Assembly: GCA_049999805.1 (NCBI GenBank)
Contig: JBNGIO010006046.1
Coordinates: forward strand, 49,944 to 69,943
DNA from: Folioceros fuciformis
Lineage: Eukaryota
Length of the DNA stretch: 20,000 bases
Direction of reading: 5' to 3'
Positions 914 to 20,000 of this stretch are shown in pieces. The position numbers were made by a program, and so were the translations under genes. Below the pieces are notes generated by a model, which saw only the letters and a program-made list of their open reading frames with translations, was not told the DNA's origin and did no database searches. The first letter of the stretch is position 1. The number at the start of each line of letters is the position of its first letter.

Positions 914-1187
914 CCTACGTCTCAATCTCCGATCCAATCCCGTGTGTAATCCCCCATGGCATGGCATCCCCATCCTCCACCGTGCATCTCTCTTCATCCA
1001 AACTCTCTCTACAGGAAATCACATATCACGATTGCCTCTACTCGTATCGCCCAGTTTTGCCAATCTCCTAGTTTAAGCCGTGAAACCATGTTTTGCCACC
1101 TCCTAGTTTAANNNNNNNNNNTGAAACCATGTTTTGCCACCTCCTAGTTTAAGCCGTGAAACCATGTTCAACCGTGAAACCGGGTCG
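912..1187 (+). repeat. Left TIR of the MULE, with repeated AGCCGTGAAACC motifs
   Basis: AGCCGTGAAACC at 1076-1087 and 1152-1163; CCGTGAAACCGGGT at 1172-1185. Confidence 0.85.
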
Positions 1188-3051: not shown

Positions 3052-3349
3052 GATCAGGATCTAACTTCCCCTCGCGCTTCTACTTGTCATTTGATGTTCA
3101 AGATGACATGAACTTAGCANNNNNNNNNNTTCAAGATGACATGAACTTAGCATCATCAAGATCCAACTTCCACTCATGTGCTTCTACTTGTTGTTTGATA
3201 TTCAAGATGACATGGACTTAGCATCATCATGATCCAACTTCCACTCACGTGCTTCTACCTGTTGTGTGATGTTCAAGATGACATGAACATAGCATCATCA
3301 GGATCCAACTTCCACTCACGCCCTTTTACCTGTCGTTTGATGTTCAAGA
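3052..3349. repeat. 71-bp tandem duplication inside the transposase coding region
   Basis: TCAAGATGACATG... recurs at 3131, 3202 and 3273, with a partial copy at 3344 and one before the N-gap. The length is not a multiple of 3, so it shifts the frame. Confidence 0.85.
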
Positions 3350-3577
3350 CATCCTTTCATTGCATGTAATCATCGCGAACATCCCGGTGTGCTCTCCATG
3401 TATGTAGTTCAAGACATCCTTTCATTGCATGTAATCATCGCGAACATCCTCTCCATGTATGTAGTGACTCATCTTCTCGTACACAACTGCAACATGTTTG
3501 CGCATAATTTCTGAGACGAAAACCTTGCAATAAAGACATGGAGTGACCATCATATCGGGGACCATGATATGACAAAC

Positions 3578-3917
3578 TGTAGGGTTATTAAAGCCCAATG
3601 TGATTAAAGCCCAATGTGATTAGACTAATGTGTTTAGTCTAAGATTAGTGTCCAGTTTAGTCTAAGATTAGTGTCCAGTTTAGTCTAAGATTAGTATCTA
3701 GTTTAGTCTAAGATTAGTGTCTAGTTTAGTCTAAGATTAGTGTCTAGTTGATATTAATTTAGCTTAAGTAGTGTCTAGTTGATAATAATTTAGCTTAAGT
3801 TAATTTGTAGGAAGCTTGTTGGCAGCTTCCTGTGCTATGCGCTTCTTGTCAAGCTTCCTTGGGAGCTCTTCTATAGGGTATAAATACCCTCTTGAGCTCC
3901 CTTGCAATAATGTGAGA
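3578..3917 (+). mobile_element. LTR-like (U3-like) insertion inside the transposase
   Basis: Starts TGTAGGG and is flanked by AAAC direct repeats (3574-3577, 3918-3921). Removing it joins ...YTDQVGD to VCH...HGP. It holds 23-bp x5 (3632-3746) and 31-bp x2 (3738-3799) repeats and TATAAATA at 3879-3886. Confidence 0.55.
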
Positions 3918-4317
3918 AAACATCACCAACCTGATCTGTATATTGTCCTTGGTGAAGAATGATCTAAGCTCCTTGAAACATGAACAATTGCTTTACAACA
4001 AAATGGGCCATACAACTAGTCTTCATTCGAACATTTCTAAGTGAGATAACTGCTCAAAAATCTTCTGGTCCATAGGAGCACCAATACCTACAAAAGAGGA
4101 GGATATGTATTTTAGCATAGCTTCAATTACCCACCGCATATCCTTCAACCAAAATGCCACAAGACTGTGGAAGGGTGTACACAAGTGCATAGACACATTA
4201 GCCTTAGCTGTTCAACCGTTTGCCAAATACAGCAGGGTAGATTATATCAGCCATATTATGGCACAGCAGGGTAGATTATATCAGCCATACTATGGCGTGA
4301 GGCCTATCAGCCATATT

Positions 4318-4614
4318 ATGGCACAACAGCTGGCCGCAGGGCATTTCGACTCTTTGAATCTTTGCGGTTGGCCGCACTCTTGAGACTTTCTCTAGCCACA
4401 AAATCCTTCACATGATTCCATTGAAATGTCCGAGCGGTGGGATGTGGACGTTGAGCGGGAATGTCTAGTGATGGCACAACAGCTGGCCGCAGGGCATTTC
4501 AACTCTTTGAATCTTTGGAGTAGGCCGCACACTTGAGACTTTCTCCAGCCACGAAATCCTCCACACGACTCCATTGAAATGTCCGAGTGGTAGGATCTGG
4601 ATGTTGAGTGGGAA
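4318..4614. repeat. ~153-bp direct duplication inside the MULE
   Basis: ATGGCACAACAGCTGGCCGCAGGGCATTTC... at 4318 and 4471. Confidence 0.85.
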
Positions 4615-4679
4615 CTCCATCAGAACATAAGCACGGTGCAAAGCGTGCTCGCTTTAGGGTTTAAGCAAAATGGTTGTTG

Positions 4680-5069
4680 AAGCTTAAACCCGGTTTCACG
4701 GCTGNNNNNNNNNNGCTTAAACCCGGTTTCACGGCTGCTCGCTTTAAGGTTTAAGCAAAATCGTTGTTGAAGCTTAAACCCGGTTTCACGGCTTACATGG
4801 TTACATCGGAGGTGGCAAAACTGAGAAAAACGAGTACAGGCGATCGCAATATGTGATTTCCTGTAGAGATGGTGAAAGAGAGATGCATGGCGATCGCAGT
4901 ATGTAATTTCCTGTACAGATGGTGAAAGAGAGATGCATGGCGATCGCATTATGTGATTTCCTGTAGAGATGGTGAAAGAGAGATGCATGGCGGAGGATGG
5001 GGACGCCATGCCACGGGGATCACACGCGAGGGCGAAGCATTTATTGGATCGGAGATTGAGACGCAGGCC
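4680..5069 (-). repeat. Right TIR of the MULE, with an internal 50-bp x3 duplication
   Basis: ACCCGGTTTCACGG at 4688, 4721 and 4778. The 50-bp unit GGCGATCGCA.TATGT.ATTTCCTGTA.AGATGGTGAAAGAGAGATGCAT occurs at 4839, 4889 and 4939. Confidence 0.85.
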
Positions 5070-5488: not shown

Positions 5489-8400
5489 CTATGCCCTGAA
5501 CAAATAACGCAGATCTGACTCGGACAGCCGAGTTCTTTGCTCCGTGAGCTCGGTCTCACCAAAAGCGGAAGCAACTATCTGCCTTTTATTGTCCTGCACA
5601 ACCCAGAACAACAGGGTCATCAACGGTGCGTCAAAGAGGAACGACATGCTACGCACAGGATTTGTAAAAGGTGAACTAACCAACCTGCAACGCTAAAATG
5701 CGGTCCTCAATTGTGTTCTTCACTGTGAAACGGGACACTTTCACAGGACGGGTTTGCCCAATACGATGTGCGCGATCAATAGCTTGATCTTCGGTTGTGG
5801 GATTCCACCAAATGTCCATCAGCAGGACATGGGACGCAGAGACCATGTTCAGTCCCAAGCTTGCTGCCTTCAAGGACATGATGATGACATTCACCTGCAA
5901 CACTTTGTCACAGCAACATGAGAACCAGGTACCTCAAAGTTGAGCAGTCCCATTGGAATCTCACCAACAGCAGCACATGCTCACCTCGGGAACTGTGTTG
6001 AACTCATGGACAGCACGATCTCTGGCATTGACAGACATAGTACCATCGAGCCGTCTGTAGCAAAATCCAGCTTGCTTCAACGGAGTTTCCAGCAGATCAA
6101 GCATGCCTGTCCACTGTGAAAAAACAATAGCCTTCTCCGTTGCAACTGAATGCTTCGTAAGGGCAAAGCTTTTGTCAACTTCAACCAGCGAACAAGTCTT
6201 TTCTCCCTTTACTTCAACCTGCCCTCTCTGTGTCGGTAAATCCGAAACAACAGCGTCAGGCAAGATTCCTACCGTCGTGTCAGTCACCTGCAACTTTGGT
6301 AGTGCCATCAGTGTACTGATGACAGCATCTATCTTAGAGGAAGAAACCCAAGCTTGGTTTGCCTCTGAGTCCAGAGTTAACTCCTGGCCCTTCACCGGCA
6401 TTGCATCGTCCAATATTGTGGCCTGGCCATTCAACGCAGCAAGAGAGTACAATTGAGATGATTTCAGAGCCTTCCTACACCCAGAAAATGGGCATATTGT
6501 ATCATCTCCGGCTCCCAGGTGCTGTAATATGCACTGCTCACAGAAGACATGATAGCAGGACGTCACAACTGCTTCCTCAAGAGCATCCTGCAGAGGGATT
6601 GAAGGTTTCAGTAACAAACAATGATGAAGGGAAGAAGGTAATGCAAAGAAACAATGATACAAAGATTCACCAAATGTTGATGAAACCCAATTGGTGCTTA
6701 GGTAGCTGAAAACATCTTATCACATATTTTTGGAGAAAACAAGGGGATTAAAGCATACATTGCATATGGAACAGATAGAATTGTTGTCCTCAACCATGGC
6801 AAGCAGCTGCCCTCGCTTGATCTCAGACAATGCGCAAACCGAGTCAATAGTGGATCGCTGGCGAGACTGGGAACTAAGGCCTTTAACGAGCTGCCTGTGA
6901 TCGCATGCCTGGCGTAGTCGCAGCAGTAACCACAATATGTTGACATAATTGTTCTGAACAGTTCCAGCTGCTGCATACATCTACACCATTCCAAAGTGAT
7001 GACGGCAGGTTAGCTTGAACCTTCATTTTCTGGTACAGATATCTAGTAAGCGGGGATCAACCAACTACGGCATCAATGCTACACAAAGAGCCACCTGAAA
7101 CTGCTCCCGAGACTCTTTCTCGAGACAAGTGTAGAACGCGCGTTCATCAGGAGTAAATTCTGCTTGTTTCAGTTCCACAATTCGAGGAGGCAACTTCACT
7201 ATTGGCTCTCCATCAATGAGGGTGCCTGGACACGCTGACAAAGGTTACGCTGCTGTTGTTTGAATTGCAATATGCATGGGAAAAGGACTAAGAACACGTC
7301 AGCCTGAAAAGACGAGAGTTTTTTTTCTTTCTTCTTTGGGGGGAGCTACGGCACTATGTTGTGCCAGCATGAAGTACTATTCTTGGACCAAGTACTGACC
7401 TTTGGTGCGCCGCAGCAGAATTCCACGTAGAATAGCCTGTAACTCACGATATCCTTCGGCAGGAAATCGGGTGATTTTTTCTTTTACTCTGGCCCGAAAC
7501 TCATTGTATTTATCATATGGTGAGTACCTCAGAAATCGGAAGTAACTGTAGAGGTCATCGATGGAGTTCTGAATGGGTGTTCCACTTAGACACCACCTCC
7601 TCTTGGCCCTCAAACCCCAGGCAGCACGGGCAACCTGTGTTTTTCCGTTCTTAATGCTTTGAGCTTCATCAAGAATAACCCGAAACCATGTGACCCTTGC
7701 TAAGGGCCCAGCATCTGAATGAGCTGAAACACCATCTTGTCCCTCAGTACCTCGGCCCCTTGGCTTCTTCCTCCCTTTGTCCGCTTTCTTTGCAGCCTTG
7801 GCTTGGAAGAAGCCATTGTTCAGTCCGTAGTCACTGTAGTTTCTTTTCTCTTCTTCCTGTTCCTCAGGAGATGGTTGCAAAGGCACCTCCAAACCAAGAA
7901 TTGAGTATGTGGTTAAAACCACGTCATATTTTGCAAGTTCTTCCGGGTCACGTGTCCTGCTTCCTCCGTGATAGATCACAAATGTCAGTCCTGCATTGGG
8001 GGACACCCTGGTCCTCAGTTCATTTGCCCATTGTCTCAGCACACTTGTGGGGCACACAACCAGAGTGCCCGCTGCGGGCCTTCCCTTGGTTGGGAAACAA
8101 GCACCATGATTTGGCGTCTTGTCATGAGCATGAGAGGGCCCATTTGTTATCGCTTCCTGGAGTTCAAATTCTTTGATATCTCGCTTGATTGGAAAACTCT
8201 TGCTCTCCTCCTCATCCTCAATATGGACAGTCTGTGGCTCTAGCAGTAAGGGACGTGACTGTTCACAATCTACATTCCGACGCGGTGGTCTGTTTTTCAA
8301 AATGAGAGAGATCGTTGAGATCGTCTTTCCAAGACCCTAGCACAGACAAGGACATGAACAACGTGAGCACAGAAAATGTGCATGCATTCATTCATCTATT

Positions 8401-10395
8401 TTGTCGTAAAGAACAAATTCCTCACGTCATTCATTGCAAAAGTCTCCCAAAACTACCTGATCATCTGCCAAGATGCCACCAACAGGGAGGTGCTCACTTG
8501 GAGCCTCCCTTTTCGTCATCCAATTGAGAGCAATCCTCTGCAATATCAACGTGACAGATATCCTCAATGTACTCTCACATTAAAATACAAATAGTATCTT
8601 TCAGAAAGAGAATTACACGAAGTTTTAAATCCACTTGACCACCCATTAGTGTACCTGATGCTTCAGAAGCTGAACAGTCATCAGACCCTCATCCAAACAT
8701 GATTCCTCTGAGGTAGGACCTTCTGCAAAAGTCTGAAACATCAACAGAAGATCTCGGTTAGAGGTTCCAACAGACAGCAAGACGCACTGAGAACCTTTCA
8801 AGAAAGCAGATAATCTCATAATCGCACAGCAGATCACGACATCGATAAATCATCTAAGGGGCCAGCTGATCCTACTTTTCCCCTGCTGACCACACTGTTG
8901 ATGTTCTGACCATGAAAGGTTCTTCTGATATTTTGTCCAATTCCAGAGGGTGGGATGGTCACTCTTGCACATAGATCATTGCTGTAAGGGTGAACCTGCT
9001 CCATCAAACGCCTTTGCGCATAGCCAGGCAGATCAAGGAGTTTGACATCGGGCCACTTCGTGATCGCAGGATGTCTGGCAGAGAGTCCGGCAGCAGCAAT
9101 CTGTTTGTTCAACAAGTCTGTTGGCAGAGATGCCACAGGTTTGGCAATATTCCAAGCTTGCGGTGCAGCTGCTTCTGACTTGACCCTAGAAAGATCAACA
9201 AGCTGAAATGCTGACTTATCCTGTTCATCAAACTTCTGGGCAACACAGGGAATCGTAACCCGATGCCGTTTGGCTACCGAATCCATCCATGCAGGAAGCA
9301 TTCGTTTTCCAAGCGCACTGCTCCCCACTTCCATTTGATCAGACAGTTCATCATCACTGCTTTCTATCTCAGTGAGGTCAACAAATCCATGCTTGATTAC
9401 AGCAGGCTGTTTTTTAGTGTCCCTCCCGTTTGCAGCTTGCACACTGGAGCTTCCAGGAAATGACATGACCATAACACACGTATCATCTTCAGAAGCAGCC
9501 ATCGCATCCTTGTGAAACTCAACAACGTCAGAGCATGGGGACAGCTCTCCAGTTGGTTCATTCACAAACCTAGACAGTGACGAAGTCACACCCTGCTTCC
9601 AATCTGATGCTAAAACAGAATCATCAGGTTGTTTGGGCCGATTACGGTCAATAAGCCTATCTGGTGTTCCGTAAGAGAAAAACCCTAACTCCTGTGATAA
9701 ATTGCTTGGAACTCCAAAAGTGAAGCTTTCCCCTCTCAGACCCTCGGATGAAGCAAAGCGGCTGCCTACTGCCATTCCTGAAGCAGCACAGTCTTTTGAT
9801 TTAGAACAGAAGAATAAGAATAGGGGTTGCAAGTCAGAGTCGACCAGAGCAGAACAGAAGACCCACAAGAGGAGTACCAGATGTTTGGGAGCCAGAATCC
9901 TGCCCAGCCAAGAAACCCCTTTGTTCTGCCAAAACTACAGTAGGCGAAAAGTCACTGTGTGACAAACTTCCTGGCGCCTCGACGTTGTTAGCCTGCCAGA
10001 AGGATGACGATGTTTTAATGAACAAACTGCCAAAGGTACAAACTGCAAAGCTAAAACTAGACCTAGCTTCCCATCGACTTGCACTGCAAAACACTTCATG
10101 CTAATATTACCTTTGGATCTTCTCTCATTAAAGCATAAAAATCGGCCAAATCAATATCAGCCTTGTCCCCATCACCCGTTAATTGTTCATCAGAGTCAGC
10201 AATAACCGCCGGCTCTACGATACCATCTTGGATTGCGGAGGTGTTGTAGCATTCATCCCCACTGACTTCACTGATTTCATCCTCAGAGCTGTGAGTCAAG
10301 ATATTTTCCATGCCATCAACCGTTGGGCGAACTGGAGGACGTGAAAACAGACTTCCCATTCCTCCACCATCGGCATGATCCCACGAGATTTTCAT
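5489..10395 (-). CDS. SNF2-family RING-finger helicase-like chromatin remodeller (Ris1/Rad5-16 subfamily, plant CHR27/CHR28 = FRG1/2-like), multi-exon
   Basis: Inferred exons (GT-AG): ~10395-10111, 9992-9878, 9792-8876, 8732-8655, 8537-8457, 8336-7400, 7225-7095, 6980-6759, 6587-5985, 5894-5685 and 5593-5489. Motifs: [12 protein letters not shown], Walker [27 protein letters not shown], Walker [27 protein letters not shown]3HC4 RING ([24 protein letters not shown]...CPFSGC), [27 protein letters not shown]. The start codon and 5' exons are uncertain. Confidence 0.93.
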
Positions 10396-11315
10396 CTTCT
10401 GGAGGTACTGAATATCTCTGCGCAATATTGTCCACAACCCGACAATCGCATGTCTACCCTGTTACAGCCACCCTTGGCGGCAGTTGTAGCACATTGACAG
10501 CAGCGAGAGACATCTGGAAGCCGATCCTACAACGCTTGCCGGTCGTAGGTGCAGGCTACGTGCTATGAAGCTCTCCTCTGACTTGTGTTTCCAAATCGAA
10601 TCCTGGAGCCACCTAGGAAAGATCAACCTTCCGGATAGAAACAAAAGCAGCAACATGCCCCCATGAAGGCAACGGCTGATTTCAGCATCAAAATCAAAAG
10701 AATCGGGCAAAATCACAAAAAAACGGTCGGACTTCACCCAGTACGTCACAATCAAAAGCAGCAAACAAGTGCAGGAATTGCTGGGCCCGTCACACGTTTC
10801 TTGCACGAGCAGCTCATCTGGACTACAACCTTCCCAACAACCAGTCAGCACCCCAACTCCCCCGACATACAATCGGTGTCTCTCGTGTTTCATTCTGGTG
10901 CCCCAGCCCCTGATGTCTCCAGCTCCGAGCGAAACCCGTTCGTCTCCAGCTCCACATCAGACAATTCACCACACGGGCCTGGCCTCACGTCGGACACCCG
11001 CAATGGCCAGACGCTTCAATATCCTCAGTCCGACTAACCAGTGATTCTCATCGTCCTCAAGCTGACTAAGTACTGAGAGATGGCTTCCTCATAGCTGAAA
11101 CATACCGGTAGACGATCCCGACGCAGCCAAGGTGGGTAGCATACAATGCAACAGTTGTGACGCTGGTATCAGAACATCGGCAGCAGTCCGTAGATTAGGG
11201 TCTCTCGATCGGCTTGAGGCAGGCATAACACAGATTACACTCTTCCTCGTCCGACCTAGGGCTCTGTTCTTGCCTTACACTTCACGCGTGCCCAATTGCA
11301 ATCCCGCTCCTCCAC

Positions 11316-11324: not shown

Positions 11325-12068
11325 GAGTGCCGACCGAGTCTCGCCTCGGTATCATGCCTGTTAGTCTTCGCCGATCCATTGTAGCGACTTGCTGAGTTGT
11401 CGAGCCTTCCAATGCTCCCTCGAGGTTTATGGTGGCCCGTATTTGAGCCACGTTTTCCGCTTCTTTTCGCCGAACTTGTCTCTCTCTAGTAAGCTTAAAC
11501 CTTTTTAACATCAAACCCGCATTCTCGTTCAAAAATAAAAATTGAAGCACGATTAAAGATTACGATTGTTTTGATACATAAACGACGTTCAAGTTATGTA
11601 TAATCATTTCTTTATACATAAAAAAACCTTAAACCTGAATTTGAAGCTCAAAGTTCATTGTGTGAAGGCTCAAGGGTCTTTTTACAAAGGCCCCACCAAT
11701 GAGATGATATATTTAAGTTTAAATCTCTTTATTTTTTTAATCTATTAAAGAAGAAAAAGGAAATCTTTCGAGTCCACCAAGGAGACATGACTATGTCCAT
11801 TCATTGAGGAATAAAAGAAAAGGTGAAACTAATTTAATTTCATGTCTTTTGCACTTCTCCTTTTCATATTATTTAATCCACCCATTGGGTACGGACCATG
11901 TTGTATGATGAAAGGTCCTATTTAAGGAGGTAACACTTTATAGAATTCTCCTTTAAGAAGGGCCAACTACATATATTTGAGTAAGTTCAAAATAATTGCT
12001 ATCAACACATGCAATATATAGATATAAGTAAAGTTGTGGGCCATTGATTTGGGAATAGCACCATAGTA

Positions 12069-12372
12069 TAGCTTCTAGACATGGATCTTAGTAGGTTCAT
12101 TTTAGATAGTTTCTAGACATGGATCTTAGTAGGTTGATTTTAGATAGCTTCTAGACATGGATCTTAGTANNNNNNNNNNNNNNNNNNNNNNNNNNNNNNN
12201 NNNNNNNNNNNNNNNNNNNNNNNNNNNNNNNNNNNNNNNNNNNNNNNNNNNNNNNNNNNNNNNNNNNNNGATCTTAGTAGGTTGATTTTAGATAGCTTCT
12301 AGACATGGATCTCAGTAGGTTCATTTTAGCTTTTGGACATGAGATCTTTGTAGGTTCATTTTAGCTTTTGAA
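12069..12372. repeat. 38-bp tandem array spanning a 100-N gap
   Basis: TAGCTTCTAGACATGGATCTTAGTAGGTT(C/G)ATTTTAGA at 12069, 12107 and 12145, and again after the gap. Confidence 0.9.
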
Positions 12373-12613
12373 CATTGCATCTTTATAGAGCGAGAGAAAG
12401 TTGGAAAGGGGAGCAACATATGGTGCCTCTTCGATGGGTGGCAGGCCCTCTTATCCATTTGGTGCATTGTGGCACATCATAAGGAAAGTAGTCCACATCC
12501 CAAAGCCTAAGACTTAGTGTCACAAGAAACATTAGGGAAAGTATCCTTGTAAGCCCTCTTAAGATGCCAATACCATCTTCACATCATACTCAAGACTGAA
12601 AGACCAAGTCCTT

Positions 12614-12828
12614 AACCTTGGCCATGCACCTCAAGTCCTATGAACCTTGACCACACACCCCAAGGCCTTACTAGACACTATGCAACCACACAACTTGGCC
12701 GTGCACCTCAAGCCCTATGAACCTTGACCACACGCCCCAAAGCCTTACTAGACACTGTGCAACCACACAACTTGGCCATGCACCTCAAGCCCTTACTACT
12801 AGATACTATACAACCACACAACTTGGTC
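12614..12828. repeat. ~77-bp tandem repeat, ~3 copies
   Basis: CTTGGCC(A/G)TGCACCTCAAG...CTTACTAGACACT...CAACCACACAA repeated. Confidence 0.85.
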
Positions 12829-13099
12829 CACCATGCACCACTTGTGTTGAACCAGGCAAGCATAGATCAAGATAACAAGACATGACAAACTGTTCTAGAG
12901 GTTCTCATAGTCTTTTATAAGGCATCTCTCCTCTCACCTCCAGGTAGTTATTAATTAAGTAATTTGGATTAGTATGTCATTGGGTTCCACTAGAGTCTAA
13001 GCAATGAGCAAGGGGCAGGTGCCCCTTGTGGATCTAATGCTAATCAGATATACTTGCCTTAGTCCCTAAGGCAGCAAATCGTAGAGGAGTTGTGGTCCT

Positions 13100-14200
13100 T
13101 ACAACTAGAGCAAGCTGTCATAATCCGATATTTTCTTCACGAAAAAAAACGAGTGAGGAAGACCATACCACACCCCACTGATTCGAGAGCCATGGTTGGG
13201 CTAAAGCCTCATCTAGTCCAAATAAGGCAGTTTGCTTTGCGAATAAGAAATTTTTCATAGAGAAGAGCCACCATAACCACGTGCCCACTTCTCGCCAAAC
13301 ACCTTGCTCAAAGTTGCATTGAAAGAACAAGTGTTGGCTTTTGTTAGGGGCACCCAGTGCTTCACATTGTGCACCGTTCCTCCCCCGTAGCCACTAACAG
13401 TCTGTCCCAACGGTTGGCGTTAGGCAAGCACGCTTGGAAATTACTCGAGGGATAAAATCTTGCTCCAAAGACCTCTAAAACCTTGTGGAGGAATACCAAG
13501 CACATCGTCCCTATTAAGGGTCTTTGCCACAATGAGGAAGGCTTTAACCTCTAGGTAGTTGCTCTAAATTGAGGCTAAAAGTGGCGAACAATCCTTGGTA
13601 TCTAGTAAGGGCTTATCGGCTAGAATGTTGTCCATCAACCTCCGTCCTTGAATTTGATCCAAGTGCTAGGTTAACTAGCTTTACCAAGAGTATCTGGTTG
13701 GATTTGTAGCCTTTAGAACCCATTCCGCATGTAAAGTTTCTTGGGGTCCACTAGTCCCACACTGCCCAACTACTTGGACTAAATAATATGCTGCCATGCC
13801 ACCTTATGAAATGAGAAGAGGACTCCATAAGAAGTGAGTCACAATTTGTTGCAATCTCCTCAAATCTGCCTTACTAGGAGCCCATAGGAAGAGACAATAC
13901 CATCAAGAAGCAGTCAATATGTGGTTTATCACTACAATCTTCTAGTAGTAACTTGAAGGTCAGATCCCTAGTAGTTGGGGTACTTTCCCCACAAGCTCCA
14001 TTCCTATTGCTGTAGCCAATTTTACCAAGTCAGCTTTTAATTGTACAGGTACTTGTCATGCTGTTGCTGTATGGGAAACAGAGCACCTAAGACTCTATGA
14101 CTGGATACTGACTAGAGCATCCTGGGCATAAGCCCTGAATGCTGAAATGACTAGATACTGACTGGAGCATCTCGGGCATAAGCCCTGATGCTGAAGTGCT
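13100..14200 (-). mobile_element. Degenerate L1-clade LINE ORF2 fragment (end of RT through zf-RVT)
   Basis: Minus-strand remnants in the expected order: SASGLMP (~14195-14170, like ASGLxxN), Y*G (~13970, like YLG), AWQHII*SK*LGSVGLVDP (~13800-13745, like AWxxIxxPKxxGGLG), FQACLPNANRW...CTM and QHLFFQCNFEQGVWREV (~13440-13285, zf-RVT). There are many stops and frameshifts. Confidence 0.7.
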
Positions 14201-14728
14201 TGATGATGTCATGTACATGGCCCATGGATGGCCTGCACATGACATGTATGCCATCTATGCATGTGTGCCATGTATGCATGCATATGGAGATGAAGGATGA
14301 CATGTGATGTATGTGGACATGTGGCAGGTGATGTGTCATGGTGCATGCAACCTATATGCATGGTTGTGCATGAAAGGTGCATGCAACCTATATGCATGGT
14401 TGTGCATGAAAGGCGCGGTGCTATGCCGCATATATAGATAGCAGATTTATATTAGAAGATATTAGAAAATACATAAAAATCATAAATCAAGGAAAGTAGG
14501 ATTATAAAGTGCCCACCATCGATACGGGTGGACACTTCATCGAGAACTCCTGGGGGTTTTTGCCTATATATGTAGGCACCCAGCCATGGATTCTCGGATT
14601 GTTGATGTTTGTCTTGTTCCAATAGACAGCCATACTTCGTCCCTGCTGTGTCTTTGTCTCCTAGAGGTTCTTGTGGTTCGTTGCATTGCCAGGTTGGGAG
14701 AATTTTCCAGCTTGATTTCACCACATCA
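14201..14728 (+). repeat. Putative 5' LTR (~525 bp)
   Basis: TGATG(T) at 14201/14204 and (A)CATCA at 14723-14728 form inverted ends. LINE homology stops at ~14200. There is a TATATAT at 14565 and a 36-bp x2 repeat at 14340-14411. The second LTR is outside the window, so the boundaries are unconfirmed. Confidence 0.6.
14565..14571 (+). promoter_or_regulatory. LTR TATA box inside the inverted repeat TGCCTA-TATATG-TAGGCA
   Basis: TATATAT lies 30 nt upstream of the sequence complementary to the putative PBS. Confidence 0.6.
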
Positions 14729-14896
14729 ACAATCCGCTTGTTGGGGACTAAGATACGGTACTGGAGGAGACTGTGGCGCGCTGGAGATTGGATGAAGAGG
14801 CGGAAATCGTCCACCATCCAACCCAGGAGACAGCTGCGATCCGAGAAGGTTGGGTGTTGCAGAGGCAGCACTAAGAGATAGGCTGATGTTTTTCTG

Positions 14897-15121
14897 ATGG
14901 ACAGGAATTCTGCCATTGATTATACACGGCTTAGGTGTGGTAGTCTCACGATTGCTGAGTTAGCAGAGCTGTCTGGAGAAGAGCCTGCATACGTCTGGAG
15001 TCGTTTGTGGATAGAGGCAGTGGATGTACTTTTCTGGCTAGCTGATTGGGCTAACGGTGGAAACAATTTGCCCTTTGACAACATCCGTGCAGTGGTCAGG
15101 CATAGGAGAAGTAACCATTGA
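14897..15121 (+). CDS. 74-aa upstream ORF of unknown function whose stop overlaps the gag-pol start (TGATG)
   Basis: ATG at 14897. TGA at 15119-15121 shares its A with the ATG at 15121-15123. No homology recognised. Confidence 0.4.
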   Translation: MDRNSAIDYTRLRCGSLTIAELAELSGEEPAYVWSRLWIEAVDVLFWLADWANGGNNLPFDNIRAVVRHRRSNH

Positions 15122-18100
15122 TGGTGTTCCTGAGATCAGGGTGGACTGACGAAAGGACACCTGCGCCGTCTTCAGTCGGAGAAGTGCACGACGGCTACTA
15201 CTCGCCATTCAAGAGGACACCGGAACAATACAGAGACAACGCGCCAGTCACAAGGAGACAGTTTGGCGATTGGAGCGGAGAGTCTGCAAGAATGGAGCTT
15301 GAGTTCACACCAAGTAAGAACGATGTCTTCACAGGAAAACATGGAAGCATGTCTCTTGCAGATTTCGAGGAGAAGTTTCGTTGGGCAATGGCGGAAAACA
15401 AGATGAAATACAAGGACGAGTTCACTCAGAGGATGGCGTTCATGAAGATGTCATCCTACCTTGCGGGTGAGGCTCTAATGTATTACAGAGATGAGAAGGC
15501 TGGGATCCTGAAGGTGGCCGAGAGAAGAGAAGCAGTGCACGAGGCGGCCAAGAGGGCTGGTTCGACTGCACCCCCTACTGACGAGGACAAGCTCGAGCAT
15601 CTGGTGGACTTGATGTTCGCCAAGTTAACCACCATGTTTCCTACAGCTTCGCTGGAAAAGATCCAGGAACTGTCGAGGTTTTCTTTCAGGCCTAACGAGA
15701 CATTGCGTGCATCTTACCTCAGACTGAAGGTTCTGGTGGAAGACACGGGAGTGAAGACGATGAGGGAGGCTGCCGAGATCTTCATGGCAGCATTGCCTGC
15801 CAGACAAAGAAGGAAGGTAATGGACTCGCTGCATGGAGCGATGGGAGAAAGATATCAGTTGATAGACGCCTACCAAATTGCTGAGAAGGTGCTCAAAGGA
15901 GATGCAGTAAGCCAGGCTTACTTGGAAAATCACGGAGTCGTGAAGGGCTCCTCGCAGCACGGGTCTGGAGGACACGGGAATTCCAGGTTTGTTCCAAGGT
16001 ACCAGTACCGGGAGCAAGCACAGTCCTCAGGACATGGCAAGCAGCCACATGCGCCGAAGGAGAGGCCAGCTAACAATGCAGGTCAAGCAGCTGTGAAGTG
16101 TGGCAGATGCTGTGGAGCGCACAAGGCGTTCGAATGCGACTACAAGCCAGGTGGTCCGAAGGGCAAGGAAGCCTGTAAGTCTTGTGGCAGATGGGGTCAC
16201 ATGGAGGCAGCGTGTTGGGAAGCTCATCCAGAGCTGAAGCCCAAGCTTGCACCAGCTGAGAACGAGAAGGGCAAGGGCCCGAGTCGTAAGGCTCTCCTTG
16301 GGCAAGTGGAGGAGCTCAAGAAGGAGATGGCCAACATGGCCAGCAGAATAGAGCAGAGGATTTTGTTCTCTGACTCTGATGATGATGAGGCATTTGGCAT
16401 GATGGCGGTGCGCAAGAAAAAGAAAAAGGCTGTTGCTAACTTTGGTGAAGGCGTCACTGCGAAGGGAGTGCCGGAACGGGAATCGACCAAGATGCCGGAG
16501 AGTTTCCGGCAGGTCGAGGGAAACTCCACGACACAGAAGGTGTCAAGATCAGGTCGAGACGTTGAGGCGTTGCTGGACAAGGCCATGGAGGTGCCTGCAG
16601 TAAGTCTTGTGGATCTGGGAGTGAAAGGCAACAACTTCAAAAACATCATGCGAGAATGGCTGAGAAAGGAGCTTGAATCCGCAGGATCTCTCCCTAGTAT
16701 GGCCAGTTTGTGTGGCGAGCATCTGATGCCAGAGGCGCGAGGTGGAGGAGGTGTTGCCATGATTGATAACACGGGACGGCACGTGACCTTTGATGGCTAT
16801 GCTCCAGTAAACGTACTTGTAGACACAGGAGCGGATCCGGTACTGCTGGGAGCACGGGTGCAGGAGGCACTAAAGCTGTACGGACACAAGCTCGTTCCGA
16901 GCGACGTGAACATCACCACCTCTGCAGGTACCAAGGAACAGGTACTGGGAATGACGAGGAGGCTCGTGAAGATTGAATTGAAGCCTGGCACGAAGGATGC
17001 CAGCATCGTTGAAGTGAGATGTTTGGTCACCAGTGCGAAGACATATGATGTCTTGCTGGGGTCGGACGGAACTCACCGTCCTGCCATGGGGGTTGATCCC
17101 TTGCACGCTGAAGCTTTCTACAGACCATTCTGGTGGAGAGGAGATTTCACGCATGTTGCACGAATTCCTCTAAGGATGAATAGGAGTGGTGGCAAGAGCA
17201 GGACGAGGATGACAGGCAGCACCATGATTGCCCACAGTGCTCAGAGTGAACATCGACATGAGATGTGGGAGGAAACGCAGGAGTTATCCTCTCTGGAGAT
17301 GCCAAAGCCAAGAGAGCAGAAGGGTGTGCTTAAGGTGGTGCGCTCAGAATATTTGGATCAAGCGAGGGTTCGAGAGAACCAGCAAAGGAAGGAGGATCGA
17401 CCGTGGAATCTCACAGACACATGTCCTGAGAGGTCGATCCCAAGTATGGGGCCTGCCAAGTCGGGAGATCGACGCATCGACGATGCTCTAGTACGATGGA
17501 AGGTGGGCGCTCAAGGCATCCATTTGTTGGAGCTCTGCTCGGGAATCAGCAGTGGCCTGGAAGCGGTGTTGCAGTGTGGCGTCAAGATACGGCAATATAC
17601 CTGCGTGGAGAAGGATGAGAAGATTCGAGCTGTCGCTAGGGGTCGAATCCTCAGGTTCTGCAAACAGTATCCAACACTACTGAGCGAGGAAGCAGTTCGA
17701 GGCTGTCAGAGCAGGCTGCCCACAGACGTGAACCTGGTTGGGAAGCGGCAGCTACAAGCCTTGTCAAGCCCAGTGGATATGCTGATCGCGGGATGGGAAT
17801 GCAAGACATTTTCGACAGCAGGCAGAGGCAACGGTGAAGGCGTTTCGTTGGCTGCTGAGCTCGCACGAATCACGCGAGAAGTCCAGATTGCTAATCCACG
17901 ATGTTGGTACATTCTGGAGAATGTGTGTGCAGCCATGGACAAACGTCCAGCTGTTAGGGCCCTGTATGAAGAGATTCGGGCGTGGTTCGGCAATGAGCTG
18001 ATCATGGACGAGGTGCAGTGTGGCTCATATGCACACAGGCTTCGCAGTTACTGGACAAATGTGGCTGGACTGGAGGTGCTCAGACAGCACAGGAATTTGA

Positions 18101-20000
18101 CAACTCCGAAGCGGAAGGTTGTGGATGATATCCTAGAGTTGGGAAGGTGCTCACAACAGGTGAAGAGGATGGACAAGTTGCCATTTTACCCTGTGAATCG
18201 AGTAGGGGAATCCAGAAGGGCATGGCCAACTCTGGTGAGCACACCGCAATCTTATGCCTTCAGACCAGGAGGAGATGGTGTGATTCTGGATTTGAAAGGG
18301 AATGAGCTTGGAGAGCTCAATGTTGAGGAACGCGAGCAAGCGATGGGCTTTGCCAAGAAGGACACTCAGACCATGGGCATCACAGAATCTGCAAGGTGCA
18401 GGATGCTCGGACAGGCATTTGACTTGTACAGTCTAAGGTGGCTGGTAAGCACAGGCTTGGCGTTCCAACTTGCAGAAGCCAAAGGGAAGCGAAGGCCTTT
18501 CCTCCAACTACTGCAGGATAAAGAGGTTCCTAAGGCAGAGGAAGACGAGCTGCTGCGGGAGAGATTCAGCATGGCCGCTGTGGATACTGAACTGTCCACC
18601 AAGAGTGTGACGAAAGAGGTTCATGTATGGCACATTGCAGAAGATGTGAGCCCGGAAGATAAGCAGAAAATCATCGACATGCTTGAGAAAAACAAGGGTG
18701 CTTTTGCATTCAGTTGGAAGGAGCTGGGCAGGTATGAGAAGATCAAGTTCAAAGTAGTGACGACTCATGAAGAGCCCGTCTTCAGAAGGAGGCACCGCCT
18801 CAGTTCAGCAGAATGGGCGATTGTTGACAAACGCTGTCAAGAGTTGTTCGAAGCGGGGTTGATACGAAAATCAAGCTCTCAATATGCTGCTGCGACTGTC
18901 CTACCGCTCAAAAAGGATGAGAACGGTGAATGGAAGGACAGGAGGATGTGTGGCGACTACCGACCTCTAAACGAGGTGACTCCTATGGAACGGTACCCCA
19001 TGCCTACTCCAGACGAGATTTTCGATGCCATAGGTAAGGCAAAATTCTTTACCAGTTTGGACTTCCGCTCAGGCTTCAACCAAATTGTGATTGAAGAGCA
19101 GGACAAGTGCAAGACAGCCTTCTGGGGGAAGGACCAGCTTTGGGAATGGGAGACGATGCCGTTTGGGCTGAAGAATGCTTCCATATATTTCCAAAGAATT
19201 GCAGATCTGGAGCTGCAAGGGCTGCCATTTGTGCGTTGCTACATAGATGATATCCTGGTCTTCAGTGAGACAATCGAAGAACATATGGAGCATCTAGAGA
19301 TATTGCTACAGAGGCTGTCAAGCTCGGGTTTGAAAGCTCATCCTAAGAAATGCAAGTTTGCTTTCCAGCAGATCGAGTATCTGGGGCATGAGATAGTACC
19401 AGGAGGCATCATGCCTCAGCTGGCTAAGGTGCAGGCCGTGATGCAAATGCCTAGACCAAAGGATGTAGCCGCTCTTAGAGCCTTCCTGGGTTTGGTGAAC
19501 TATTACAGGAGATTTATGAAGGATCTCAGTTCCACGTGTAAACCTCTGTATGAGCTGTTGAAGAAAGACATTGTGTGGAAATGGAACCAAAACCAGGAGT
19601 TGGCTTGGCAAGATCTTCGGGACCAGTTGGCAGAAAAGCCTATGTTGGCCAGGCCGAATTTTGATCACCCTTTCACTCTGTACACAGACTGGAGCACTGC
19701 GGGGATTGGAGCAGTGTTGTCACAACATGATGCAGATGGTGTTGAGCGAGTGATAGCTTATGCAAGCCGATCTAACAACTCCGCTGAAGTGAACTACTCC
19801 TCATATGAGGGAGAGTGTCTTGCTGCGGTATGGGCAGTTCTGCATTTCAGGGTCTATCTGTATGGAAGGCGTTTTCAACTGGTCACAGATCACCAGCCAC
19901 TTCATTGGCTGATGACCAACATGAAGTTAAGTGGTAAGCTAGCCAGATGGGCACTGCTACTATCTGAGTACGATATGGAGATCGTGCACAGGGCAGGCAA
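15121..20000 (+). CDS. Gag-Pol polyprotein (Gag, zinc knuckles, aspartic protease, DNMT, RT, RNase H), 3'-truncated by the window
   Basis: Hand translation shows no stop from ATG 15121 (in-frame TAA at 15112) to the window end. Zinc knuckles CGRCCGAHKAFEC (16099-16137) and CKSCGRWGHMEAAC (16174-16215); protease LVDTGA (D at 16822) and YDVLLGSD; RT RMCGDYRPLN, LDFRSGFNQI, MPFGLKNA, YIDD (19240-19251), YLGH; RNase H LYTDWS...GAVLSQ, IAYASR, EGECLA, TDHQPL. Confidence 0.97.
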   Translation, partial: MVFLRSGWTDERTPAPSSVGEVHDGYYSPFKRTPEQYRDNAPVTRRQFGDWSGESARMELEFTPSKNDVFTGKHGSMSLADFEEKFRWAMAENKMKYKDEFTQRMAFMKMSSYLAGEALMYYRDEKAGILKVAERREAVHEAAKRAGSTAPPTDEDKLEHLVDLMFAKLTTMFPTASLEKIQELSRFSFRPNETLRASYLRLKVLVEDTGVKTMREAAEIFMAALPARQRRKVMDSLHGAMGERYQLIDAYQIAEKVLKGDAVSQAYLENHGVVKGSSQHGSGGHGNSRFVPRYQYREQAQSSGHGKQPHAPKERPANNAGQAAVKCGRCCGAHKAFECDYKPGGPKGKEACKSCGRWGHMEAACWEAHPELKPKLAPAENEKGKGPSRKALLGQVEELKKEMANMASRIEQRILFSDSDDDEAFGMMAVRKKKKKAVANFGEGVTAKGVPERESTKMPESFRQVEGNSTTQKVSRSGRDVEALLDKAMEVPAVSLVDLGVKGNNFKNIMREWLRKELESAGSLPSMASLCGEHLMPEARGGGGVAMIDNTGRHVTFDGYAPVNVLVDTGADPVLLGARVQEALKLYGHKLVPSDVNITTSAGTKEQVLGMTRRLVKIELKPGTKDASIVEVRCLVTSAKTYDVLLGSDGTHRPAMGVDPLHAEAFYRPFWWRGDFTHVARIPLRMNRSGGKSRTRMTGSTMIAHSAQSEHRHEMWEETQELSSLEMPKPREQKGVLKVVRSEYLDQARVRENQQRKEDRPWNLTDTCPERSIPSMGPAKSGDRRIDDALVRWKVGAQGIHLLELCSGISSGLEAVLQCGVKIRQYTCVEKDEKIRAVARGRILRFCKQYPTLLSEEAVRGCQSRLPTDVNLVGKRQLQALSSPVDMLIAGWECKTFSTAGRGNGEGVSLAAELARITREVQIANPRCWYILENVCAAMDKRPAVRALYEEIRAWFGNELIMDEVQCGSYAHRLRSYWTNVAGLEVLRQHRNLTTPKRKVVDDILELGRCSQQVKRMDKLPFYPVNRVGESRRAWPTLVSTPQSYAFRPGGDGVILDLKGNELGELNVEEREQAMGFAKKDTQTMGITESARCRMLGQAFDLYSLRWLVSTGLAFQLAEAKGKRRPFLQLLQDKEVPKAEEDELLRERFSMAAVDTELSTKSVTKEVHVWHIAEDVSPEDKQKIIDMLEKNKGAFAFSWKELGRYEKIKFKVVTTHEEPVFRRRHRLSSAEWAIVDKRCQELFEAGLIRKSSSQYAAATVLPLKKDENGEWKDRRMCGDYRPLNEVTPMERYPMPTPDEIFDAIGKAKFFTSLDFRSGFNQIVIEEQDKCKTAFWGKDQLWEWETMPFGLKNASIYFQRIADLELQGLPFVRCYIDDILVFSETIEEHMEHLEILLQRLSSSGLKAHPKKCKFAFQQIEYLGHEIVPGGIMPQLAKVQAVMQMPRPKDVAALRAFLGLVNYYRRFMKDLSSTCKPLYELLKKDIVWKWNQNQELAWQDLRDQLAEKPMLARPNFDHPFTLYTDWSTAGIGAVLSQHDADGVERVIAYASRSNNSAEVNYSSYEGECLAAVWAVLHFRVYLYGRRFQLVTDHQPLHWLMTNMKLSGKLARWALLLSEYDMEIVHRAG
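17518..18450 (+). other. DNMT3-like C5-cytosine DNA methyltransferase domain within the polyprotein
   Basis: Motif I LLELCSGISSG (17524-17556); II YTCVEKD (17596-17616); III DV (~17725); IV VDMLIAGWECKTFSTAG (Cys at 17800-17802); VI YILENV (17908-17925); VIII GSYAHRLRSYWTN (18022-18060); IX LNVEEREQAMGF (18316-18351); X ITESARCRMLGQAFD (18379-18423). Confidence 0.93.

What the first reader, a model, noticed from the sequence alone, without database searches (positions are those of the whole stretch)
17518..18450. Gypsy retrotransposon encodes its own DNMT3-like cytosine methyltransferase between protease and RT
Seen in sequence: a ~310-aa domain with C5-MTase motifs I, II, III, IV, VI, VIII, IX and X in canonical order, fused in frame inside an uninterrupted Gag-Pol. 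Established: AHRLRSYWTN, EEREQAMGF and ARCRMLGQAF parallel DNMT3 AHRARYFWGN, EMERVFGF and ARQRLLGRSW, and the unpermuted order argues against plant DRM origin. DNMT-bearing retrotransposons are rare but have been reported from dinoflagellates and the charophyte Klebsormidium (de Mendoza et al. 2018). Inference: the neighbouring genes look like those of a land plant or close streptophyte, so this may extend the system to a new lineage. The enzyme could methylate the element's own cDNA or insertion site as camouflage or self-regulation, or reshape the host methylome.
Basis: partly seen in the sequence, partly recalled or inferred. Interest (0 to 1): 0.95.

Follow-up and report, generated by a model that had tools for sequence, protein, structure and literature searches.

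The report
Retrotransposon carrying its own DNA methyltransferase
A jumping gene in a plant-lineage genome encodes, inside its own long reading frame, a DNMT3-type DNA cytosine methyltransferase; such elements were first described in a green alga and prove widespread in green plants, so this is a new member of a rare but known kind.

Summary
Window 15292-20000 (+) is one uninterrupted Gag-PR-DNMT-RT-RNaseH frame that runs off the window. Positions 17518-18480 encode a C5 cytosine methyltransferase domain. Pfam alone barely sees it (21.6 bits, cut-off 22). A profile of 30 relatives matches DNMT3A at 5e-25, ahead of DRM and bacterial enzymes, in unpermuted order. An AlphaFold model (pLDDT 90) superposes best on DNMT3A/B/C. 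Every catalytic residue is kept.

It is not a new kind. The domain belongs to a family of 958 clusters. That family includes a Klebsormidium nitens protein with the same Gag-PR-DNMT order, from the species and element type published in 2018 as KnitGypsy-Dnmt3. It also includes unannotated copies in Marchantia, Sphagnum and Closterium.

The host gene is 52-58% identical to all land-plant groups, so the lineage stays unresolved. The element is highly repeated. Most copies diverge from the window right after the DNMT domain.

Verdict: a real, apparently young new member of the streptophyte Gypsy-DNMT3 lineage. Methylating activity and function are untested.

The parts
14054..14723 (+). Left end of the repeated element and putative 5' LTR. 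The start is fairly firm; the 3' end of the LTR is tentative.
   Evidence: In run X1 the word depth is 6-27 over 12200-14026 and 2665 over 14027-14287. The unique-depth contig ends at 14081. Repeat contigs begin at 14054 (loose ends 'before' 14054). Three contigs run off 'behind' 14722 with unlike continuations. The sequence starts TG at 14054-14055 and has CA at 14722-14723. No 3' LTR is in the window, so it is unconfirmed.
15292..20000 (+). Gag-Pol reading frame (Gag-PR-DNMT-RT-RNaseH), uninterrupted and open at the window's 3' end
   Evidence: The frame is open from 15118, with the first ATG at 15292.
16174..16215 (+). Gag zinc knuckle CX2CX4HX4C (CKSCGRWGHMEAAC)
   Evidence: Regex on P0001. 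Pfam zf-CCHC did not reach E 0.01 here but does in relatives.
16783..17067 (+). Aspartic protease (DTGA at 16822)
   Evidence: Pfam Asp_protease_2, E 1.8e-6, 29 bits against a cut-off of 24.3; motif located.
17518..18480 (+). DNMT3-like C5 cytosine methyltransferase domain, motifs I-X in unpermuted order. It carries the catalytic Cys in GWECK, ENV and the RxR motif.
18665..18665 (+). Point (codon 1183, just upstream of the RT module) where most copies in the sequencing runs stop resembling the window
   Evidence: X1 depth is about 520-600 before this point and about 85-110 after it. An identical 30-nt loose end lies 'behind' 18665 in X3 and X4, and that 30-mer is absent from the window.
18931..19395 (+). 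Reverse transcriptase (YIDD at 19240)
   Evidence: Pfam RVT_1, E 4.4e-28; motif located.
19582..19971 (+). Ty3/Gypsy-type RNase H
   Evidence: Pfam RT_RNaseH, E 4.7e-37, and RT_RNaseH_2, E 1.9e-32.

Best explanation
This is a copy of a Ty3/Gypsy-type LTR retrotransposon of the streptophyte 'Gypsy-DNMT3' lineage, the kind first described as KnitGypsy-Dnmt3 in Klebsormidium nitens. SHOWN: its Gag-Pol frame carries a DNMT3-like C5 cytosine methyltransferase domain between protease and reverse transcriptase. The domain has the DNMT3 fold and unpermuted motif order. It keeps the SAM-binding acids, the catalytic Cys, ENV and RxR. The element is highly repeated in its host, with many near-identical copies, so it spread recently. 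INFERRED (about 0.35): the domain is made as part of the polyprotein and therefore sits in the particle beside RT. There it would methylate the element's own new cDNA, or the DNA at the new insertion, de novo. The element would then enter chromatin already carrying a host-like mark, or would damp its own expression. INFERRED (about 0.6): the most abundant form in the host keeps Gag-PR-DNMT but lacks this RT, as a deletion derivative or a divergent subfamily. The window's copy would then be the rarer autonomous-looking form.
For: The Gag-Pol frame is uninterrupted, with PR, RT and RNaseH in Gypsy order. A family profile matches DNMT3A (5.4e-25), then DNMT3C and DNMT3B, ahead of DRM (2.5e-16) and M.HhaI (1e-10). 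It matches DNMT3A colinearly, whereas DRM chains match in permuted positions. The AlphaFold2 model has pLDDT 90.3 and pTM 0.90. All 33 Foldseek PDB rows printed (ranks 1-50) are DNMT3A/B/C, with TMt 0.73-0.82 on catalytic-domain chains. Viral MTases fit worse, with TMt at most 0.64 and rmsd about 7-10 Å for the best-ranked matches. In a 163-sequence domain alignment the window keeps the catalytic Cys (161/163), ENV Glu (163/163), both RxR Arg (158/163 each), motif II acid and motif III Asp. Its 'EC' in place of 'PC' is the family majority (E 93, P 57). PF00145 is matched by 28 of 30 aligned relatives. The same PR-DNMT-RT order occurs in 32 of 178 relatives. These include full-length CCHC-PR-DNMT-RT-RH-INT proteins (P0307, Closterium P0021) and Marchantia, Sphagnum and K. 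nitens proteins. The window's RT is 48-51% identical to the RTs of those relatives (n=7) and 33-45% identical to the RTs of the other architecture (n=52). For repetition, X1 depth is about 420-2660 from 14027 to 18724, against 6-27 in the flank, and 83 of 221 laid contigs are at least 99% alike. The PR-DNMT junction is bridged by contigs from three studies: X3 17002-17695, X4 17333-17648 and X5 17258-17580. Published background for the kind, and for the cDNA-methylation idea: PMC5890265 (passages, Discussion).
Against: Pfam's own model is under its cut-off on this copy (20.5 and 21.6 bits against 22). The residue after the catalytic Cys is K where 144 of 163 relatives have Q; only 3 of 163, the window included, have K. 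No activity is shown. The published K. nitens domain gave no methylation in yeast, a result its authors call inconclusive. The DNMT-RT link in this exact form rests mainly on the window. Depth falls about five-fold at 18665, and the only printed contig crossing it (X4, 18636-18819) has 30 letters on the left, one short of the tool's bridging rule. The variants printed in the frame are 8 synonymous and 15 non-synonymous (3 and 4 in the DNMT domain), which does not show purifying selection; 114 further variants were not shown. The integrase, the 3' LTR and the target-site duplication lie outside the window. No reference DNMT3, DRM or DNMT1 sequences were at hand, so no rooted DNMT tree was made.
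Confidence: 0.8

Rival explanations
1. The domain has the methyltransferase fold but no longer methylates DNA. It would serve as a DNA- or chromatin-binding or structural module of the polyprotein, i.e. a pseudo-enzyme.
For: Motif IV is non-canonical (GWECK): Glu replaces the near-universal Pro, and Lys replaces Gln at a position where 144 of 163 relatives have Q. Pfam PF00145 is below its cut-off. The K. nitens relative showed no de novo methylation in yeast (PMC5890265).
Against: Every residue needed for catalysis and SAM binding is kept: Cys, ENV Glu, RxR, motif II acid and motif III Asp. These residues are nearly invariant across 163 diverged relatives, which is hard to explain without catalysis. 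'EC' is the majority state of the whole family, not a lesion of this copy.
Confidence: 0.1
2. The in-frame DNMT-RT junction in the window is an assembly or recombination product. The DNMT-bearing repeat in this genome would really be an RT-less element, and the RT half would belong to another Gypsy family.
For: Depth drops from about 520-600 to about 85-110 at 18665. X3 and X4 contigs leave the window there with the same foreign continuation. In organism B the RT half is deep (166-355) while the DNMT half is shallow (1-24). No printed contig bridges 18665 with at least 31 letters on both sides.
Against: The frame stays open across the junction for 1627 codons. Fourteen of 178 relatives have DNMT immediately followed by RT, including full-length ones. 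The window's RT is closest to the RTs of exactly those relatives. X4 and X1 contigs run over 18636-18819 before a separate 1134-nt deletion joint. Table 8 was cut (266 pieces not shown), so bridging contigs may exist.
Confidence: 0.07
3. The enzyme acts on RNA (the element's genomic RNA or the primer tRNA) rather than on DNA, as DNMT2 does.
For: The substrate is untested. The 2018 authors raise RNA methylation for another TE-borne DNMT, SymbioLINE.
Against: Profile and fold rank DNMT3A/B/C far above DNMT2 (E 5e-25 against about 1e-4). The DIRS-borne Dnmt3 domains methylated CG in DNA in yeast.
Confidence: 0.05
4. A host DNMT3 gene, or a domesticated one, merely abuts a retrotransposon, and read-through creates the long frame.
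For: None specific. Streptophytes do have host DNMT3 genes.
Against: The DNMT segment is as repeated as Gag and PR, at depth about 500 against about 10 for the flank. It has no introns. It lies between PR and RT, as in relatives from five other genera.
Confidence: 0.02

Closest known systems
KnitGypsy-Dnmt3 of Klebsormidium nitens (de Mendoza et al. 2018, PMC5890265)
   Same: An LTR/Gypsy-type Gag-Pol with an unpermuted Dnmt3-like domain in the polyprotein, intronless and multi-copy. A K. nitens protein (GAQ93235.1, P0106) has the same Gag(CCHC)-PR-DNMT order. It aligns at 32% identity over 360 aa (E 3e-43). It falls on the window's side of the main split of the domain tree (support 0.869).
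   Different: Only about 32% identical, so this is a different, long-diverged subfamily (window branch length 0.99). The host is a different, land-plant-like genome. Depth of contigs in this host is about 50 times the flank's, though the tool says depth is not a copy number; the paper stresses 'fewer copies' in K. nitens. The DIRS-like repeat layout reported for KnitGypsy could not be checked because the window ends inside Pol. I infer, but did not verify, that GAQ93235.1 is one of the published KnitGypsy-Dnmt3 copies, since the paper's supplements are closed.
Unannotated Gag-PR-DNMT(-RT) proteins of Marchantia polymorpha (Mp_8g17980, MARPO_0008s0049, MARPO_0084s0073), Closterium spp. and Sphagnum fallax in public proteomes
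   Same: Same domain order. They are the best named matches to the window's domain, at 38-40% identity with E 1.8e-65 to 4e-55 for Marchantia. A Closterium protein is full length: CCHC-DNMT-RT-RH-INT.
   Different: They form separate clades in the domain tree (Marchantia group 0.983, Closterium group 0.981). I found no paper describing them as TE-borne DNMTs.
Green-algal Gypsy elements with RT-RNaseH-DNMT-integrase-PHD order (Haematococcus lacustris, Cymbomonas tetramitiformis, many metagenome proteins)
   Same: Homologous DNMT domain, 29-37% identical. The family-profile E-values reach 6e-153 overall and about 1e-111 to 1e-136 for the named algal proteins.
   Different: The domain sits after RNase H, not before RT (75 of 178 relatives). 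These form essentially one clade (75 of 75 such tips with 1 of the other type). Their RTs are more distant from the window's.
Animal DNMT3A/3B/3C catalytic domains (solved structures)
   Same: The closest solved sequences and folds: unpermuted motif order and shared AHRxR..W.N, ERE..GF and R..LG motifs.
   Different: About 18-21% identity. No PWWP or ADD reader domains (Pfam). Motif IV is EC, not PC. There is a larger insert between motifs VIII and IX (TMq 0.58-0.67 against TMt up to 0.82). It is embedded in a retroelement polyprotein.
SymbioDIRS-Dnmt3 of Symbiodinium (PMC5890265)
   Same: A Dnmt3-type domain inside a retrotransposon Pol. Two such domains were shown to methylate CG de novo in yeast.
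   Different: These are DIRS elements with a tyrosine recombinase, in dinoflagellates. The authors regard them as independent acquisitions. No sequence comparison was made here.

Membership tests
C5 cytosine DNA methyltransferase (Pfam PF00145 fold) | Significant match to the family model | tested here: inconclusive
   This copy scores 20.5 and 21.6 bits against a cut-off of 22. However, 28 of 30 aligned relatives match at E<=0.01, best 2.6e-17.
C5 cytosine DNA methyltransferase (Pfam PF00145 fold) | Rossmann-type MTase fold with the catalytic residues: motif IV Cys, motif VI ENV, motif VIII RxR and the SAM-binding acids of motifs II and III | tested here: met
   The model has pLDDT 90.3. Foldseek gives 192 PDB matches at E<=0.001, and every printed row is DNMT3. 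All the listed residues are present.
DNMT3 family | Closer to DNMT3 than to DRM, DNMT1/CMT, DNMT2 or bacterial MTases | tested here: met
   Family profile against PDB: 29 DNMT3A/B/C sequences at 5.4e-25 to 4.1e-17, DRM-type at 2.5e-16 to 1.4e-12, M.HhaI at 1e-10, DNMT2 at about 1e-4. No DNMT1 or CMT appears at E<=1. The fold ranking agrees.
DNMT3 family | Unpermuted motif order (I-X), unlike DRM | tested here: met
   Three colinear stretches align to DNMT3A (profile 75-116, 151-307, 359-405 to chain 9-50, 68-211, 242-288). DRM chains align with their C-terminal half to the profile's N-terminal half.
DNMT3 family | Placement inside the DNMT3 clade in a rooted tree with reference DNMTs | not tested
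   No reference DNMT3, DRM or DNMT1 sequences could be obtained. For K. nitens copies the 2018 paper reports a divergent Dnmt3-related clade (text seen; figure and supplement not seen).
DNMT3 family | N-terminal reader domains (PWWP/ADD in animals, a DUF in land plants) | tested here: not met
   Pfam finds none in the 1627-aa frame. According to PMC12344493 these domains are not conserved across eukaryotic DNMT3s, so this does not exclude membership.
Ty3/Gypsy LTR retrotransposon | Pol order PR-RT-RNaseH(-INT), with Gypsy-type RT_RNaseH | tested here: met
   PR 556-650, RVT_1 1272-1426, RT_RNaseH 1489-1618. The integrase lies beyond the window; it is present in full-length relatives P0307 and P0021.
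Ty3/Gypsy LTR retrotransposon | Two LTRs, target-site duplication, PBS and PPT | not testable with these tools
   Only the left boundary is visible (about 14054). The window ends inside Pol, and no genome is held. A Met-initiator-type PBS motif (recalled) was not found in the leader.
Streptophyte Gypsy-DNMT3 (KnitGypsy-Dnmt3 kind) | Dnmt3-like domain in frame within the Gag-Pol of a Gypsy-type element | tested here: met
Streptophyte Gypsy-DNMT3 (KnitGypsy-Dnmt3 kind) | Homology and shared architecture with the K. nitens copies | tested here: met
   P0106 = GAQ93235.1 [K. nitens]. BLASTP gives 32% over 360 aa at E 3e-43, plus PR at 28% and E 7e-8, in the same order. Pfam on P0106 finds CCHC, PR and PF00145. 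Same side of the 0.869 split.
Streptophyte Gypsy-DNMT3 (KnitGypsy-Dnmt3 kind) | [quoted passage not shown] | tested here: inconclusive
   Only 7 printed variants fall in the domain (3 synonymous, 4 non-synonymous), and 114 variants were not shown.

The most novel reading that the evidence does not exclude
Gypsy-DNMT3 is not a Klebsormidium curiosity. It would be an old, Viridiplantae-wide lineage of methyltransferase-carrying retrotransposons with two alternative positions of the same DNMT3-like domain: before RT in streptophytes and after RNase H in green algae. It would still be transposing in genomes at land-plant depth. In this host the form that multiplied most would keep Gag, protease and the methyltransferase but not this RT, which would point to the DNMT module itself being what is selected or exploited. 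Neither the land-plant copies nor the two-architecture pattern appears in the papers I could search.
Probability: 0.3. Interest if true: 0.6.

Novelty: new member of a known kind. Interest (0 to 1): 0.4.

Why it matters
Cytosine methylation is the host's main weapon against transposons, so a transposon that carries its own de novo methyltransferase inverts the usual picture. Only two host groups have been described in print: dinoflagellates and the alga Klebsormidium. This copy is intact as far as the window reaches, recent and highly repeated. It sits in a genome whose genes are as close to land plants as land-plant groups are to each other. That makes it a practical subject for asking what the enzyme does: methylome data on young and old copies, and expression of the domain. 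It also prompts a census, because homologues in Marchantia, a laboratory model, are sitting unannotated. The finding itself does not change the concept.

Tried and rejected
The window's own genome is not held. That ruled out a copy census, a 3' LTR search and dN/dS across copies.

RNA evidence: no RNA holder is listed, and X3 is only guessed to be RNA. Nothing is said here about expression.

Homodimer prediction of the domain gave no answer, with scores 0.00 and 0.00. It is not evidence either way.

The 30-nt continuation that most copies show after 18665 does not occur in the window at up to 3 mismatches. The abundant form therefore cannot be explained as a deletion within the window.

A Met-initiator-type PBS motif (recalled from memory) was not found in the leader. 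The two hits elsewhere are at chance level.

Host placement: identities of the SNF2 exon are flat across land plants at 52-58%. I made no tree, because the named hits contain no algal outgroup, so an unrooted tree could not separate 'deep land plant' from 'close alga'.

CpG observed/expected is 0.51-0.63 in the element and 0.54-0.55 in the flank and host gene. There is no element-specific signal.

Earlier notes of this scan had nothing near this place or like this sequence.

A viral origin was considered. Viral C5-MTases fit the model worse than DNMT3 does. This does not exclude an unsampled virus.

One search failed on the wrong frame and was corrected. One search exceeded the size limit, so five of its seven proteins were scanned and P0044 and P0176 were left out.
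Full report
OBSERVATION. On the + strand a frame without stops runs from 15118 to the end of the window, 1627 codons. The first ATG is at 15292. Pfam finds an aspartic protease (aa 556-650; DTGA at 16822), RVT_1 (1272-1426; YIDD at 19240) and Gypsy-type RT_RNaseH (1489-1618). Between protease and RT it gives a weak PF00145 hit of 20.5 bits against a cut-off of 22. A CX2CX4HX4C knuckle lies at 16174-16215. Cut out as P0002 (window 17458-18510), the domain still scores only 21.6 bits. Its best PDB matches by phmmer are DNMT3A at E 3.9e-4. All 24 sequences listed at E<=1 are DNMT3A/B/C, DRM2 or 4onj/4onq chains. From memory I take 4onj/4onq to be a tobacco DRM.

IS IT REALLY A DNMT. A full HMMER scan of 1.84 billion representatives found 958 clusters at E<=1e-3, 473 at 1e-10 and 140 at 1e-30. 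The best is about 40% identical. I aligned P0002 with 29 short relatives, chosen from the 32 relatives of at most 560 aa that have full domain coverage. PF00145 is matched by 28 of those 30 sequences.

The profile of that alignment hits 57 PDB sequences at E<=1:
- 29 DNMT3A/3C/3B sequences come first, at 5.4e-25 to 4.1e-17.
- 4onj/4onq follow at about 1e-16 and DRM2 at 1.3e-12.
- M.HhaI scores 1e-10, and HaeIII, DNMT2 and others trail.
- No DNMT1 or CMT chain appears.

The match to DNMT3A is in three colinear stretches covering motif I, motifs IV-VIII and motifs IX-X. DRM chains instead align their C-terminal half to the profile's N-terminal half. This confirms the unpermuted order.

AlphaFold2 on that alignment gives pLDDT 90.3 and pTM 0.90. 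Foldseek against the PDB prints 33 rows within ranks 1-50, all DNMT3A/B/C. On catalytic-domain chains TMt is 0.73-0.82 and rmsd 3.4-5.7 Å. Viral C5-MTases fit less well, with TMt at most 0.64.

In a 163-sequence domain alignment the window keeps the catalytic Cys (161/163), the ENV Glu (163/163), both Arg of RxR (158/163 each), the motif II acid and the motif III Asp. Its Glu before the Cys is the family's majority state (E 93, P 57). Only the Lys after the Cys is unusual (Q 144, K 3).

WHAT FAMILY. Named relatives in the word-indexed search are three Marchantia polymorpha proteins (38-40% identical), nine Closterium proteins, one Haematococcus protein and one Sphagnum fallax protein. A profile search adds Cymbomonas and more Haematococcus and Closterium proteins. 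An exact look-up shows that P0106 is GAQ93235.1 of Klebsormidium nitens.

I used the window's own Gag, PR, DNMT, RT and RNaseH segments as phmmer queries on the 178 relatives P0003-P0180:
- 32 have the window's order, with PR and/or Gag before DNMT and/or RT after it. Fourteen of them have DNMT directly followed by RT.
- 75 have RT/RNaseH before DNMT.
- 71 show only the DNMT domain.

Pfam confirms full-length CCHC-PR-DNMT-RT-RH-INT in P0307, CCHC-DNMT-RT-RH-INT in Closterium P0021, and CCHC-PR-DNMT in the partial K. nitens protein. The Marchantia proteins read Gag-PR-DNMT, and one of them continues into RT.

I built a FastTree of 163 domains. Sixteen of the 178 relatives were dropped because their domain envelope fell outside 270-420 aa. 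The tree has no outgroup and is midpoint-rooted. All 75 RT-RH-DNMT tips fall in one clade together with a single tip of the other type. The PR-DNMT-RT tips form several separate groups: Marchantia (support 0.983), Closterium (0.981) and others. The window lies on a long branch (0.99). It pairs with an unnamed JGI protein (0.935), on the same side of a 0.869 split as the K. nitens protein.

BLASTP of the whole window frame against the K. nitens protein gives 32% over 360 aa of DNMT (E 3e-43) and 28% over the protease, in the same order. The window's RT is 48-51% identical to the RTs of seven same-order relatives and 33-45% identical to 52 of the other order.

LITERATURE. De Mendoza et al. 2018 (PMC5890265) describe intronless Dnmt3-related domains in the Pol of a Gypsy LTR element of K. 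nitens (KnitGypsy-Dnmt3). I read passages of this paper and its whole Discussion. They report conserved key residues, Ka/Ks below 0.2 and an inconclusive activity test in yeast. The DIRS-borne Dnmt3 of Symbiodinium methylated CG de novo.

A 2026 preprint (10.64898/2026.05.21.726589; passages) refers to 'streptophytes (Gypsy-DNMT3)'. [quoted passage not shown] PMC11982613 and PMC6453930 (passages) held nothing on TE-borne DNMTs.

Six full-text searches found no paper that names land-plant copies or the two architectures.

HOST. The minus strand at 5676-10956 carries an intron-bearing SNF2-RING-helicase gene with SNF2-rel_dom, RING and Helicase_C domains. Its best named relatives are CHR28-type proteins. 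Over one 319-aa exon it is 52-58% identical to liverworts, mosses, lycophytes, ferns, gymnosperms and angiosperms alike. Those groups are mostly 55-62% identical to one another. The host is therefore about as far from each land-plant group as they are from each other. It belongs to none of the groups among the named hits. I cannot tell a deep land-plant lineage from a very close alga.

THE ELEMENT IN ITS HOST. I laid Logan contigs of four runs on 12200-20000. In X1 the summed word depth is 6-27 up to 14026. It rises to 2665 in 14027-14287 and stays at 420-1270 from 14288 to 18463. The tool warns that depth is not a copy number. Even so, the contrast shows that the element, DNMT segment included, is highly repeated.

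A unique-depth contig ends at 14081 and repeat contigs start at 14054, which marks the left end. Of the 221 contigs laid from X1, 83 are at least 99% alike, which suggests recent spread. Contigs from three studies bridge the PR-DNMT junction.

At 18665 (codon 1183, just before the RT module) depth falls to about 85-110. X3 and X4 contigs both leave the window there with the same continuation, which is absent from the window. A separate 18819-to-19954 deletion joint is seen in X1 and X4. The commonest form in this host therefore keeps Gag-PR-DNMT but not this RT sequence, and the window holds a rarer form with an intact frame.

The printed variants in the frame are 8 synonymous and 15 non-synonymous, too few to judge selection. 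Ten of the 26 printed variants touch a CpG. Four are CpA in the window where other copies have CpG. That is a hint of ordinary CpG decay, not of anything specific to this element.

MECHANISM. Shown: domain identity, fold, retained catalytic residues, position in the polyprotein and repetition. Inferred: the domain is translated with Gag-Pol, so it would be packaged beside RT. The simplest role is then de novo methylation of the element's own cDNA or of the fresh insertion, as the 2018 authors argued for the DIRS elements. I give this about 0.35. Rivals are a non-catalytic role, an RNA substrate, and a mis-joined DNMT-RT junction.

VERDICT. The reading as a DNMT3-like enzyme inside a Gypsy Gag-Pol is supported. 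The 'new lineage' claim is only partly supported. This is a new member of a known kind.

Noticed in passing
window 952-5018: Long inverted repeats (952-1062 against 4813-5018; arms of 31-57 nt, 86-91% complementary) flank about 3.9 kb. That interval holds minus-strand ORFs with weak, sub-threshold MULE and ZSWIM RNaseH-like matches (2791-3039: PF10551 at 17.7 bits, PF21056 at 20.9 bits). This looks like a MULE-type DNA transposon just downstream of the SNF2 gene.
   Followed up: partly
window 5676-10956, minus strand: The neighbouring host gene is a CHR28-type SNF2-RING-helicase. From memory, not from any call, Arabidopsis CHR27/CHR28 (FRG1/2) act in RNA-directed DNA methylation. A methyltransferase-carrying transposon next to such a gene is probably coincidence.
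   Followed up: no
family of P0003-P0180 and P0308-P0335 (not in the window): The same DNMT3-like domain occupies two different positions in Gypsy Pol. It lies before RT in 32 of 178 relatives (streptophytes). It lies after RNase H, followed by integrase and PHD, in 75 of 178 (Haematococcus, Cymbomonas, many metagenome proteins). The latter form one clade in the domain tree. I found no paper describing this.
   Followed up: partly
family alignment: Motif IV of this family is mostly G-W-E-C-Q: Glu in 93 and Pro in 57 of 163 sequences, in place of the near-universal Pro-Cys of C5-MTases. What a Glu next to the catalytic Cys does to catalysis is unexplained.
   Followed up: partly
window 18665 and 18819-19954: Most copies in the runs diverge from the window at 18665, right after the DNMT domain. 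A 1134-nt internal deletion joint (18819 to 19954, removing most of RT and RNase H) is seen in two runs from different studies. RT-less derivatives that keep Gag-PR-DNMT seem to dominate.
   Followed up: partly
window 14097-14188, 14340-14411, 12046-12377, 12617-12826, 3130-3349, 3609-3772, 569-772: There are many short tandem repeats, with units of 23-77 nt. Two arrays (50-nt and 36-nt units) lie inside the putative LTR. The 36-nt unit is present once instead of twice in other copies (joint 14342 to 14379).
   Followed up: no
window ~857-866, ~1112-1121, ~4704-4717, ~12170-12181: Short runs of N interrupt repeats in the window. They look like masked or unresolved stretches. None lies in the element's reading frame.
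   Followed up: no
window 17234, 17384, 18481, 19953: At these sites the window has CpA where other copies have CpG. At three of them the CpG form is the majority. This is consistent with deamination of methylated CpG in this particular copy.
   Followed up: partly
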